Of a stretch of 64,000 nt of DNA, positions 3,782 to 26,248 are shown piece by piece. Location of the stretch: the NCBI RefSeq assembly GCF_964213995.1, contig NC_135821.1, positions 10,478,001 to 10,542,000 on the forward strand. The letters are read 5' to 3'. Every line of letters begins with the position of its first letter. The stretch's first letter is position 1. The notes under the pieces were generated by a model. The model had not been told where the DNA came from. It saw nothing but the letters and a program-made list of their open reading frames with translations, and made no database searches. This DNA is from Mustelus asterias (taxonomy: Eukaryota). The translations under genes and the position numbers were made by a program.

Positions 3782-3907
3782 GTGAGGGTCAGTCTGGGTG
3801 GTGGCGAGTTGGTGTAGATCCAGGAGACTCTGGTTCACATTCTTCTCCAGATCTAGGGCAACTTGCATTGCCTGTAGACTGTTGCCCCACTCATCCCTCT
3901 CTGGCTT
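3782..3907 (-). CDS. Ferritin copy A exon 3
   Basis: Acceptor TGTAG|AAG, donor [18 protein letters not shown]...DPH. Confidence 0.93.
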
Positions 3908-6825
3908 CTACAATGGAGAAAGACAGGCCAGTTATTTCAGGGAGCTTTCAGCTTGTCCATTTGGACCGAGAGAAGGAAGAAGGAGTTCAGGATCAGGTCA
4001 ACAATTTCCCAGTTTTTGCAGAGTTACGGGACAATTCAAAGCTCCTCTTGTATAAAGAGGTGTTTCTCAGTGCCCACACAGCAAGATTGTTCTGCTGATA
4101 ATTCTGTCAGTCCAATGACTTGAAACCTCATCATTAAAGCAGCCATCCCCCTCCCCCCTCAAATTCCCACCTTCACATCCTGGAGGAGGATGCGGCCTCC
4201 ACGTTTATTCTGGAATTTCATCAGCTTCTCCACGTGTTCCCGCTTCTCCTGGGACTGATGTTTGAAGAAGTGGGAGAAATTGTCGAGGGCGACATCATCT
4301 CGGTCAAAGAAAGATGTCTGAAAGAGAACAATCCCAATTCCATTAAACACAACACGGAGGCCCCAAGTCCTCGTCCAGATTTCTAATCAAACTGACTCTT
4401 CATATTGAAGTCACTTGATATTATCCTCCCTGCTTTGGGGATATCGAATGGTCTGTAACCCAATGTCTGATTCTAATTGTAATGATTAGATAGTAGAATT
4501 GGAACAGGACAACCCTCAAATATTCTGGTGTTGGAAGCACAGTTTCAATGAACATAAAATCCAACTGTGCAAGAAAAGTGCAAATATTGGTTTAGCATTT
4601 GCACCGAAATTGAATATTAATTGAAGTGTAGAAAGTCAATATTGGAAAAACTAAATTATAAACACCATTGAAGTGAGGATTTAAAAAGTCAATTCTAGAT
4701 TATAAAATTAGAAATGTCTGATGATTAAAACATGCTACCGTGCAAAGGGACCTGGGGGTCCTTGTGCATGAGACGCAAAAGCCCAGTCTGCAGGTACAAC
4801 AGGTGATCAAGAAGGCAAATGGGATGTTGGCCTATATTGCGAGGGGGATAGAATATAAAAGCAGGGATGTCTTGATGCACCTGTACAGGGCATTGGTGAG
4901 GCCGCAGCTGGAATACTGTGTGCAGTATTGGTCCCCTTATATGAGGAAGGATATATTGGCATTGGAGGGAGTGCAGAGAAGGTTCACCAGGTTGATACCG
5001 GAGATGAGGGGTTTGGATTATGAGGAGAGGCTGAGGAGATTGGGTTTGTACTCGTTGGAGTTTAGAAGGATGAGGGGGGATCTTATGGAGACTTATAAGA
5101 TAATGCGGGGGCTGGATAGGGTGGAGGCGGAGAGATTCTTTCCACTTAGTAAGGAAGTTAAAACTAGAGGACACAGCCTCAAAATAAAGGGGGGTCGGTT
5201 TAAGACAGAGTTGAGGAGGAACTTCTTCTCCCAGAGGGTGGTGAATCTCTGGAATTCTCTGCCCACTGAGGTGGTGGAGGCTACCTCGCTGAATATGTTT
5301 AAAGCGCGGATGGATGGATTCCTGATCGGTAAGGGAATTAAGGGTTATGGGGATCAGGCGGGTAAGTGGTACTGATCCACGCCAGATCAGCCATGATCTT
5401 ATTGAATGGCGGGGCAGGCTCGAGGGGCTAGATGGCCCACTCCTGCTCCTATTTCTTATTTCTTATGATTAAATTGCTACCATTTTCCAATCAACTTCCA
5501 ATATATAGTATCTCCAAATCATAGAATCATAGAATCCCTACAGTGCAGAAGGAGGCCATTCGGCCCATCGAGTCTGCACCGACCACAATCCCACCCAGGC
5601 CCTACCCCCACATATTTTACCCACTGATCCCTCTAACCTACGCATCCCAGGACACTAAGGGGCAATTTAGCATGGCCAATCAACCTAACCCACACATCTT
5701 TGGACTGTGGGAGGAAACCGGAGCACCCGGAGGAAACCCACGCAGACACGGGGAGAATGTGCAAACTCCACACAGACAGTGACCCGAGCCAGGAATCGAA
5801 CCCGGGACCCTGGAGCTGTGAAGCAGCAGTGCTAACCACTGTGCTACCGTGCCGCCGAGAAGACCTTGATGTACTAATGAAGCTACAGGTTCATAACCCA
5901 GAGAACACATTGTTCAAGATCTAAGGCAGTCTGAAAACTAGCAAAATACTGGAGAGCCTGACAAATGGTCATCTAGACTCAAAACATTGGCTTTATTCTC
6001 TCCCTGCAGATGCGGTCAGACCTGCTGAGATTTTCCAGCATTTTCTGTTTTTTGTTGTGGAAGCTGGAATCGAATTAGAATGAGCACAAAGCTGAACATA
6101 GTCATCAATAAAAGCAGGAGGCGATGGCCTAGTGGTATTATCACCAGACTAATAATCCAGAAACTCAGCTAATGTTCTGGGGACTCAGGTTCAAATCACA
6201 CCACTGTAGATGGTGAAACTGGAATTCAATGACAAATAACTGAAATTAAGAATCCACTGATGACCGCGAAACCATTGCCAATTGTCAGAAAAACCCATCC
6301 GATTCACTAATGTCCTTTAGGGAAGGAAATCTGTCATCCTTACCTAGTCTGGCCTACAGACTCACAGCAGTGTGGTTGACTCAACTGCCCTCAGGCAACT
6401 AGGGATGGGCAATAAATGCTGGCCCAGCCAGCGACACCCATGTCCCACGAATGAATTAAAATAAAAGCCAGTCTGGCCAATGGGACTCCATTCCTTGACC
6501 AACTTTGTTGACTCAACTCTCTTTTGGAATAATGAAGCATTCCATTCGGTTGTGGCAGTTAATGGGATGGACAATAAGTGCCAGTAACATTCTGAGACTA
6601 ACTATTCAAAGATTAAGAACACTTTTGCTCTGTGTATAATCATTCATTCAGCAGCCAATTAGCAGACTAGGTGCAGTCATATGACTACCAATGCCTAGGC
6701 ACAACCAGAGAGACAAGACTCACCAAAGAAAGATAGAGATAGGAGGCAGTGAGCTCCAGGTTAATCTGCTTGTTGACACCAGCTTCACAATCCTGGTGAT
6801 AGTTCTGGGAAATCTGGGAGTCCAT
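3782..6825 (-). CDS. Ferritin gene copy A (H/M-like frame with L-like substitutions); exons 6825-6724, 4317-4171, 3907-3782; exon 4 not present in window (3'-partial)
   Basis: Spliced translation [125 protein letters not shown]. All introns are GT-AG and phase 0; exon sizes 102/147/126 fit the vertebrate ferritin gene structure. Confidence 0.93.
4171..4317 (-). CDS. Ferritin copy A exon 2
   Basis: Acceptor TTTCAG|ACA, donor [16 protein letters not shown] and QNKRGGR motifs. Confidence 0.93.
4730..5464 (+). mobile_element. 5'-truncated CR1 LINE (ORF2 C-terminus) in ferritin A intron 1
   Basis: 211-aa ORF with RDLGV, RPQLEY, FFSQRVV; TTCTTAT tail; target-site duplication ATGATTAAA at 4721-4729 and 5465-5473. 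Confidence 0.9.
5518..5856 (-). mobile_element. HE1-type V-SINE, full length (representative of more than 25 copies in the window)
   Basis: tRNA-like head with A/B boxes (TAGCACAGTGG, GGTTCGATTCC); V-domain GTCTGCGTGGGTTTCCTCCGGGTGCTCCGGTTTCCTCCCAC; CR1-like tail ending (ATTCTATG)n. Confidence 0.88.
6118..6466 (+). mobile_element. Second tRNA-derived SINE family (other copies at about 17790-18070, 21838-22175, 36195-36527, 50692-50972, 61025-61215)
   Basis: TGGCCTAGTGG and GGTTCAAATC boxes; shared body CCATCTGGTTCACTAATGTCCTTTAGGGAAGGAAATCTG; tail GGGCAATAAATGCTGGCC..GAATGAAT. Confidence 0.75.
6724..6825 (-). CDS. Ferritin copy A exon 1
   Basis: ATG at 6825; donor TTG|GTGAGT; 34 codons. Confidence 0.93.
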
Positions 6826-24700: not shown

Positions 24701-26248
24701 GGAGGCCCCACCAAGTCTGAACATTACACCAAGGCCTCTTTCTAAGCAAGGATATGAGATCACATTAAAAATCCTTTCGCTTCCTCAGTATATAGAATCC
24801 AGTCTTCATGTTTCCAATTGTAAAGGTTAGCCACACCCATCCAATAGCATAATGTGATAGAAATTGTAACTTTAGTGTGAACACCATCTGCCAAGTGACA
24901 TTGTGTGTATTCTATTAAATTTAAGCCTTTTGCACCCTTATTCTCAATAGCTTCCAGCTAACCATAATTACAGGAAAGGAATTGTTACAATTTATTCAGT
25001 GTTACCTACAGGGCAGCAAGCACAAGACGTTAATCAGATTGGCGTCCGATTTGTATTGGATTAGTTACCCAAGAAATACATGTTCAAGTCCTTCAAATAA
25101 GGAAAAAAAATTGAAAATGAAGTGTCACAACTAGGCTTACATTAACACTGCAATGAAGTTACTGTGACAATCCCCTAGCTGCCACACTCCAGCACCTGTT
25201 CAGGCACACTAAGAATTTAGCATTGGCCAATGCATTTAACCAGCACATCTTTTAGACAAGTATCAAAAATGACCATGAAAGTTTAAAAACCCCAACTTGT
25301 TCACTAATGAAAAATGCTATTTTTACTCAAGTCTGGCCCACAGGTGACTCCATTCTCACACCAATAGACTCAATACCTTCTGACATAGCCCAAGGGTAAA
25401 TTACCCTGTAGTGTCAGGGAGACTAGCAGGGTTTGGGCCTGGGTGGGATTGTCGTCAGTGTGGGCTTGATGGGCCAAATGGCCTCCTTCTGCACTGTAGG
25501 GATTCTATGATTCTAGTAAGCTGCTCATTTGTGGGAATGATGGCTGCTCCTTCATCAGATGGAGTGGATATCTTCGTCAGATGGAGTGGACGAAGGCGCA
25601 GGGCTCCAAAAGCTAATGGCATTTGCTACCAAATAAACCTGTTGGACCTGGTGTTGTTAAAACTCTTACTGCATTTATGGGAACTCAGGGTTGGGCAGTA
25701 AATGTCCAAAGATGTGCAGGTTAGGTTGATTGGTCAGGCTAAATTGCCCCTTACTGTCTGTGGGACTAGCTAGGGCAAATGCATGGGGATAGGGCAAGGG
25801 TGGGATTGTTGTTGGTGCAGACTCAATGGGCCAAATGGCCTCCTTCTGCACTGTAGATTGTGTGATACTCCAGTCACAGTCAAAATGAACATTAAAACTT
25901 CAATCCAGTTTGGGAAGACACTTCTATTCCACATAGATCATTCTAGGAACAGCCAATGAACCAACCACTTGATATTCAATATCACCACATCTCACAATCG
26001 CAATCTCATTGCAATTAGTAATTAGGGTGGAATGACATCTTTAGTTAGGAGAGCTACAAAACACAACCATGAAGTCAAGTTAGACTTAATGGAAGAATTT
26101 ACTTCAGAATAATGCATTTTATTTCAAACCCAGAGACAAGACTCACCAAAGAAAGATAGAGATAGGAGGCAGTGAGCTCCAGGTTAATCTGCTTGTTGAC
26201 ACCAGCTTCACAATCCTGGTGATAGTTTTGGGAAATCTGGGAGTCCAT
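21545..26248 (-). CDS. Ferritin gene copy C, complete, 176 aa; exons 26248-26147, 24662-24516, 22957-22832, 21700-21545
   Basis: Open spliced frame; exon 2 [49 protein letters not shown]; exon 4 [57 protein letters not shown] at 21419-21424 (minus). Confidence 0.95.
22290..22512 (+). mobile_element. Penelope-like element 3' end (pseudo-LTR) fragment
   Basis: GCTACCAAATAAACCTGTTGG..AACCTGGTGTTG motif shared with 23229-24280; decayed hammerhead core. Confidence 0.75.
22832..22957 (-). CDS. Ferritin copy C exon 3
   Basis: 126 nt; nucleotide-identical to copy B exon 3 by eye. Confidence 0.94.
23229..24280 (-). mobile_element. Penelope-like retroelement (RT C-terminus plus GIY-YIG endonuclease), 5'-truncated, in ferritin C intron 2
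   Basis: [40 protein letters not shown]...H and GLNRD peptides; frameshifted; nested in a V-SINE. Confidence 0.9.
24516..24662 (-). CDS. Ferritin copy C exon 2
   Basis: 147 nt; TAG acceptor, GTGGG donor. Confidence 0.94.
26147..26248 (-). CDS. Ferritin copy C exon 1
   Basis: ATG at 26248; donor GTGAGT. Confidence 0.94.

What the first reader, a model, noticed from the sequence alone, without database searches (positions are those of the whole stretch)
3782..26248. Triplicated ferritin cluster with Lys at ferroxidase ligand 62: L-like, possibly ferroxidase-poor subunits on an H/M frame
Seen: all three paralogues read ..SQE-K-x-EH where human H chain reads SHE-E-R-EH (AAG codons at 4243-4245, 13100-13102, 24588-24590). 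All read LELTASY (Tyr29 to Thr), and B and C read ETHCLDEQ (Tyr137 to Cys). Glu27, Tyr34, Glu61, His65 and Glu107 are kept in all three, and Gln141 in B and C. Known: Glu62 bridges the di-iron site; mammalian L chain has Lys62 and lacks Tyr29 and Tyr137; E62K is half of the standard H-chain ferroxidase knockout (E62K/H65G). These proteins also lack the acidic nucleation residues of L/M chains at positions 57 and 60 (His and Gln here). Inference: an intermediate or convergent L-type ferritin family in elasmobranchs, kept intact in three or more copies, possibly serving co-assembly, storage or a non-iron role.
Basis: partly seen in the sequence, partly recalled or inferred. Interest (0 to 1): 0.72.

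Follow-up and report, generated by a model that had tools for sequence, protein, structure and literature searches.

The report
Shark germline ferritins with light-chain lysine
These are intact shark genes for the iron-storage protein ferritin, from an old shark-wide class carrying the lysine found in our non-catalytic 'light' chain, so they likely act as non-catalytic partners of the shark's many normal ferritins, probably in egg cells.

Summary
Observation confirmed. Three intact ferritin genes carry Lys62, Thr29 and Cys137. They are part of a 4-gene cluster, with 3 further unplaced copies, 5.5 Mb from a 36-gene array of normal Glu62 ferritins. Lys62 marks a well-supported clade found in 12 shark species of 5 orders. 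Cys137 is almost limited to this species, and His57/Gln60 are not diagnostic. The Lys62 genes lack an iron-responsive element and share the array's CCAAT/TATA promoter. Spliced Lys62 contigs occur in runs from relatives, guessed to be RNA. A processed copy across an exon junction points to germline transcription. Best reading: a likely ferroxidase-dead, L-like subunit partnering the Glu62 array, probably in oocytes; activity and co-assembly are untested. Trees cannot separate true FTL orthology from convergence. The shark expansion is published (Sahm 2024; Yang 2026); neither passage set I read mentions this class. This scan has already noted the same class on other shark genomes.

The parts
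6724..6825 (-). Gene A exon 1 (ATG at 6825)
4171..4317 (-). Gene A exon 2; Lys62 codon at 4243-4245
3782..3907 (-). Gene A exon 3; exon 4 lies outside the window at G000:C21:10477660-10477815
6905..7055 (-). Gene A promoter: TATA 6905-6910, TGATGTCATTTCC motif 6942-6954, CCAAT-type boxes; no IRE
16625..16726 (-). Gene B exon 1
   Evidence: protein identical to NCBI XP_078093264.1 = P0002
13028..13174 (-). Gene B exon 2; Lys62 codon at 13100-13102
   Evidence: codon kept in relatives' contigs
12565..12690 (-). Gene B exon 3
   Evidence: joints 12690/13028 and 12012/12565 seen in contigs
11857..12012 (-). Gene B exon 4 with Cys137 and stop; poly(A) signals at 11713-11725
16820..16969 (-). Gene B promoter: TATA 16820-16825, shared motif 16856-16868, CCAAT-type boxes; no IRE
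26147..26248 (-). Gene C exon 1
24516..24662 (-). Gene C exon 2; Lys62 codon at 24588-24590
22832..22957 (-). Gene C exon 3
21545..21700 (-). Gene C exon 4 with Cys137 and stop; poly(A) signal at 21419-21424
26346..26396 (-). Gene C promoter core: TATA 26346-26351, shared motif 26384-26396; no IRE

Best explanation
These are intact genes of an old shark-wide Lys62 ferritin class whose subunits are predicted to lack iron-oxidising activity and likely co-assemble with the catalytic Glu62 ferritins of the large array on the same chromosome, probably in oocytes. Shown: Lys replaces the bridging Glu62 while Glu107, the three-fold channel residues D131/E134 and the lumen residues E61/E64 stay; there is no IRE; the promoter is shared with the Glu62 array; spliced and processed copies exist. 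Inferred: Lys62 pairs with Glu107 as in mammalian L chains, blocking the di-iron site and stiffening the bundle. Shared promoters would switch both classes on together, independent of iron. The Glu62 subunits would oxidise iron and the Lys62 subunits would stabilise the mixed cage of a maternal iron store. Whether the class is the ortholog of FTL or a convergent shark invention is unresolved (about 40 to 55).
For: Lys62 in 86 of 86 shark members retrieved (83 by a helix-C motif, 3 by cluster; redundant entries, 12 species, 5 orders), against Glu62 in 98 of the other 103 ferritins. Clade support 100/98. All 15 coelacanth and tetrapod L chains examined have K62, E107 and E141. A review states that E62K alone abolishes activity in FTHL17 (PMC7760355, passage); another describes the L-chain K62-E107 salt bridge (PMC11396501, passage). 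Other site residues decay separately in each lineage (T29 in galeomorphs, E141 in carpet sharks, F137 in some lamniforms, R/C65 in Heptranchias, C137 here), as expected once catalysis is lost. Mean dN/dS among 5 intact copies is 0.38. The promoter aligns with 3 of 5 array genes tested (scores 94-113, shuffled maxima 43-60) and with none of 5 other ferritin genes beyond the shuffled maximum. IREs were found only at FTH1 and at one M-type gene. Of 37 dispersed copies examined, 30 derive from the array, 3 from Lys62 genes, 3 from FTH1 and 1 from the M gene; one Lys62 copy spans the exon 3/4 junction by 86 nt. The Greenland shark's largest cluster is ovary-specific (bioRxiv 10.1101/2024.09.09.611499, passage).
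Against: No activity, assembly or tissue data exist for these proteins. They keep E27, Y34, H65, E107 and Q141, so one metal site may survive. The ovary statement concerns the largest Greenland shark cluster, not Lys62 genes; Yang et al. saw some copies expressed in fin and blood. The contigs come from other sharks, are only guessed to be RNA, and have no tissue on record. Only 1 of the 3 Lys62 dispersed copies crosses a junction by 30 nt or more, and they were sought with a Lys62 query. Processed copies show germline or early-embryo transcription of either sex, not oocytes. The acidic L-chain nucleation pair E57/E60 is absent, so L-type nucleation help is doubtful.
Confidence: 0.55

Rival explanations
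1. The Lys62 subunits form their own cages with a non-iron or regulatory role in germ cells, like mammalian FTHL17.
For: FTHL17 has the same E62K change with most other ligands kept, is germ-cell expressed and partly nuclear (PMC7760355, passage). No IRE; L-type nucleation acids missing; here the cluster lies 5.5 Mb from the array.
Against: The promoter is shared with the catalytic array. Channel residues D131/E134 are kept in 81 and 82 of 86 motif-set entries. Branches are short, unlike the long branch of the marsupial FTHL17-like protein.
Confidence: 0.2
2. The subunits keep slow or single-site iron oxidation and are tuned-down M-type chains rather than dead ones.
For: E27, Y34, E61, H65, E107 and Q141 are all kept in this species. 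The classic knockout changes both 62 and 65 (PMC6929972, passage). The Stegostoma member's model is closest to frog M ferritin.
Against: E62K is reported as sufficient (second-hand in a review). H65, Y137 and Q141 drift in several shark lineages while K62 does not.
Confidence: 0.17
3. The genes are redundant duplicates in which the one-step GAG to AAG change drifted to fixation, with no role of its own.
For: E62K is a single transition and also appears sporadically (a Heptranchias array copy, a marmot H-like entry). One unplaced copy is frameshifted.
Against: Lys62 is invariant in a clade spanning hexanchiform to carcharhiniform sharks; open frames; dN/dS below 1; multi-copy in many species.
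Confidence: 0.05

Closest known systems
Shark ferritin tandem clusters ('FTH1b', Yang et al. 2026, PMC13214024; FTL/FTH1 clusters, Sahm et al. 2024, 10.1101/2024.09.09.611499)
   Same: Same expansion. Yang reports one large (55) and one small (4) cluster on one chromosome, the same layout as the 36 + 4 here.
   Different: Neither the passages nor Yang's searched supplements mention ferroxidase residues ('ferroxidase' 0 hits). Whether their small cluster is the Lys62 class was not tested.
Coelacanth and tetrapod L chain (FTL; amphibian and reptile 'light chain, oocyte isoform-like')
   Same: K62 with E107; shared I8, L37 and partly S52; E141 in carpet sharks; same chromosome arm as BAX and GYS; sister group in the 61-row tree at 81/91.
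   Different: Keeps H65 and E27, and here Q141; no E57/E60 pair; no IRE (mammalian FTL has one, recalled); much closer in sequence to H/M chains; sister relation not stable across trees.
FTHL17 (mammalian germ-cell ferritin)
   Same: E62K on an otherwise H-like site, germline link, small multigene family.
   Different: Separate origin on an H-like background (recalled: X-linked retrogene); the shark genes have four exons and evolve slowly.
Amphibian/fish 'lower' subunit
   Same: Also a non-catalytic vertebrate chain (recalled).
   Different: A different gene: its shark counterpart lies at C21:5023663 and groups with salmon and lungfish lower subunits at 96/94.

Membership tests
Ferritin (PF00210) | Ferritin domain, four-helix bundle plus E helix | tested here: met
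   Pfam hits on the exons; model of the Stegostoma member pLDDT 89, TM 0.94 to frog M
H/M catalytic chain | Complete ferroxidase centre E27, Y34, E62, H65, E107, Q141 | tested here: not met
   K62 in 5 of 5 intact copies; the rest kept
H/M catalytic chain | 5' UTR iron-responsive element | tested here: not met
   No Rfam hit in the window or the flanking copies; positive controls FTH1 and the M gene hit
FTL-type L chain | K62 with E107 (salt bridge) | tested here: met
   Residues present; the bond itself was not measured
FTL-type L chain | E141 and loss of E27/H65 | tested here: not met
   Q141, E27, H65 here; E141 only in carpet sharks; some amphibian and coelacanth L chains keep E27 or H65
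FTL-type L chain | Acidic nucleation residues at 57 and 60 | tested here: not met
   H57/Q60; reptile L chains also have H57
FTL-type L chain | Monophyly with FTL | tested here: inconclusive
   81/91, absent; AU p 0.31 and 0.55
FTL-type L chain | Synteny with BAX and GYS1 | tested here: inconclusive
   Same arm, 1.85 and 1.0 Mb away; nearest detected neighbours HSPBP1-like and a cytohesin; all other C21 ferritins share the arm
FTL-type L chain | No ferroxidase activity; co-assembly with catalytic chains | not testable with these tools
   Needs recombinant protein
Shark FTH1b array lineage | Shared IRE-less CCAAT/TATA promoter | tested here: met
Shark FTH1b array lineage | Monophyly with the Glu62 array | tested here: inconclusive
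   SH 80 without L chains; AU p 0.14 and 0.51; dS 0.78 to the array against 2.6 to the M gene

The most novel reading that the evidence does not exclude
The shark Lys62 class is the true ortholog of the tetrapod ferritin light chain. Lys62 was the first step in making the L chain, before sharks and bony fish split, and the L chain began as a germline partner of an oocyte ferritin; sharks preserve the early state and some lineages repeated the later steps (E141, F137).
Probability: 0.35. Interest if true: 0.72.

Novelty: new variant of a known kind. Interest (0 to 1): 0.52.

Why it matters
Shark ferritin expansions are being read as extra iron-detoxifying capacity linked to ferroptosis and long life (Yang 2026). 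If a conserved share of the copies is non-catalytic, IRE-less and germline-expressed, that reading needs revising towards egg iron provisioning. The class also gives natural single-step intermediates (K62 alone; K62+E141; K62+F137; K62+R65) for testing how the H/L division of labour arose, and whether once or twice.

Tried and rejected
Pseudogene reading: rejected (open frames, GT-AG, dN/dS 0.38). C1362 as a second haplotype: rejected. Cys137 as a family trait: rejected. Intron and 3' UTR homology between Lys62 genes and the array: no terminal-anchored BLAST hits; 2 of 49 pairwise scores exceeded the shuffled maximum. Resolving orthology: five trees disagree on the sister group; some searches were quick trees. 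A closer shark relative of amphibian L elsewhere in the genome: none among 150 scored of 287 candidates. No RNA holder listed for this species. Contig depth differed about 40 to 100-fold among four runs of one study, but depth cannot rank expression and tissues are unknown, so it was not used. No ray, skate, chimaera or bony-fish member of the clade appeared, but only the best 120 hits per search and up to 15 members per cluster were listed, so absence is not shown. The motif used caught 3 invertebrate proteins (all E62, dropped from the count) and missed 3 shark members (added). Flank scan covered 128 of 621 non-repetitive ORFs. RUVBL1/2 and GYS1/2 identity on C21 were left undetermined. No complex prediction was obtained, and no PDB sequence comparison of the window's own protein is available.
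Full report
Observation. The window holds three ferritin genes on the minus strand with the usual four-exon plan (102, 147, 126, 156 nt) and GT-AG sites. The cited codons are AAG on the coding strand. 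All residue claims check out, with numbering verified on a mammalian H chain from a search. The window is G000:C21:10478001-10542000. Gene A's last exon lies just outside it, a fourth gene faces the other way 5 kb further on, and three more copies sit on unplaced C1362. An assembly gap lies just upstream of the fourth gene. NCBI proteins identical to these genes are labelled Mustelus asterias 'ferritin heavy chain-like'.

Genomic context. The same contig carries 36 gene models of a Glu62 ferritin at 4.66-4.95 Mb, 31 intact and all 31 with E62, followed by four single divergent ferritins. FTH1 lies on C9 beside a bestrophin. C21 also has BAX at 8.6 Mb and a glycogen synthase at 9.4 Mb. The nearest neighbours detected for the Lys62 cluster are an HSPBP1-like exon about 27 kb to one side and a cytohesin exon about 66 kb to the other. 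These are human 19q13 genes (recalled), so the arm matches the FTL region, but this does not single out the Lys62 genes.

Distribution. Lys62 proteins were retrieved from 12 shark species in 5 orders, including the hexanchiform Heptranchias. All 86 shark members have K62; 98 of the other 103 ferritins have E62 (with the corrections given under Tried and rejected). The entries are redundant and are not independent events. The clade has 100/98 support. T29 is general in galeomorphs but not Heptranchias; E141 marks carpet sharks; F137 some lamniforms; R/C65 Heptranchias; C137 this species. So K62 came first and other site residues changed later, lineage by lineage. E107 is invariant.

Selection. 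The five intact copies are 96.5-98.3% identical in coding sequence while intron ends are mostly 70-90% alike over aligned columns; mean dS 0.052, dN/dS 0.38. This fits purifying selection plus exon homogenisation; I did not separate the two.

Regulation. Rfam finds no IRE in the window or flanking copies but finds one at FTH1 and at the M-type gene C21:4993722. A hairpin scan of all ferritin upstream regions agrees. About 200 nt of the Lys62 promoter align with 3 of 5 array promoters tested and not with the other ferritin genes; introns and 3' UTRs do not align. The shared parts are CCAAT-type boxes, a TGATGTCATT motif and TATA. Some boxes match the Y-box of oocyte promoters (consensus recalled).

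Expression. No RNA run of this species was listed. In 8 runs from three other organisms, guessed to be RNA, contigs join the exons at the predicted junctions and leave introns almost uncovered; 7 of 8 have a contig across codon 62 that keeps Lys. In the genome itself, 37 dispersed copies were classed by best parent: 30 array, 3 Lys62, 3 FTH1, 1 M. Crossing a junction by 30 nt or more: 25, 1, 3 and 1. L123 matches Lys62 mRNA across exons 3/4 at 95%. Inherited processed copies imply transcription in the germline or early embryo (inference). This is a sample of the dispersed hits, and the Lys62 copies were found with a targeted query.

Mechanism. Glu62 is one of the main ligands and E62K/H65G removes activity (PMC6929972, passages). 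E62K alone is said to suffice in FTHL17 (PMC7760355, passages). In L chains K62 bonds to E107 and stabilises the subunit (PMC11396501, passage). The shark subunits keep the fold (model of the Stegostoma member) and the channel acids. I infer non-catalytic subunits co-expressed with the catalytic array, forming mixed cages, probably for maternal iron storage. Activity, co-assembly and tissue are untested.

Origin. Without L chains the clade is weakly sister to the array. With them it falls in an unresolved group with the array and L, beside the M gene, or sister to L at 81/91. AU tests reject neither pairing; with seven site columns removed the two constrained trees differ by 0.13 log units. 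For convergence: shared promoter, dS 0.78 to the array against 2.6 to the M gene, shared K22, N109, L158, and E62K being a single transition also seen in a sponge ferritin (PMC8395497, passages) and a marsupial group. For orthology: shared I8, L37, S52, K62 and coelacanth L chains that keep E27. I put it at about 55 convergent, 40 orthologous.

Literature. Sahm et al. (passage, abstract and outline; supplements closed) report ancient clusters and ovary-specific expression of the largest. Yang et al. (passages and a supplement term search; figures not seen) report 55 + 4 copies called FTH1b. PMC11719527 (passages) added nothing. Ten searches found no description of a shark Lys62 class, but they also missed Yang et al., which I reached through earlier scan notes, so 'not in print' is weak. 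Earlier notes report the same class in other shark genomes; they are not independent support.

Verdict. Real and ancient; a new variant within a known expansion; moderate interest, higher if it proves to be the FTL ortholog.

Noticed in passing
G000:C21:4974779-4985529 (L083-L084): An intron-containing ferritin with a 45-residue Arg-rich, acid-free N-terminal extension that looks like a mitochondrial targeting peptide; a similar extension is on the Scyliorhinus torazame protein P0225. Possibly a shark mitochondrial ferritin of separate origin from mammalian FTMT.
   Followed up: partly
G000:C21:5023663-5049692: A ferritin grouping with fish and lungfish 'lower' subunits; a second likely non-catalytic chain in sharks.
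   Followed up: partly
G000:C21:4955250-4964592: A divergent single ferritin with K61, E62, Q65 and no IRE; long branch, unplaced in the trees.
   Followed up: no
Dispersed loci L001-L012, L023, L115-L142: Most processed ferritin copies examined (30 of 37) come from the IRE-less array rather than housekeeping FTH1, pointing to heavy germline transcription of the array.
   Followed up: partly
Position 22 of Lys62 and array proteins: Both classes mostly have Lys where H, M and L chains have Arg; this Arg is the NCOA4 contact in human FTH1 (recalled).
   Followed up: no
window 14090-15410: 44 copies of a 30-bp unit, 99% alike, inside intron 1 of gene B.
   Followed up: no
window 28508-60241: Several arrays of a 52-bp unit related to the common interspersed repeat of this genome.
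   Followed up: no
P0156, P0159: Two NCBI records labelled Salmonella carry a lamniform Lys62 ferritin, one identical to a Carcharodon protein and one on a 631-bp contig; probably shark cDNA contamination.
   Followed up: no
G000:C11:95.03 Mb and C22:76.71 Mb: Displaced, intron-containing, broken copies of the Glu62 array gene.
   Followed up: no
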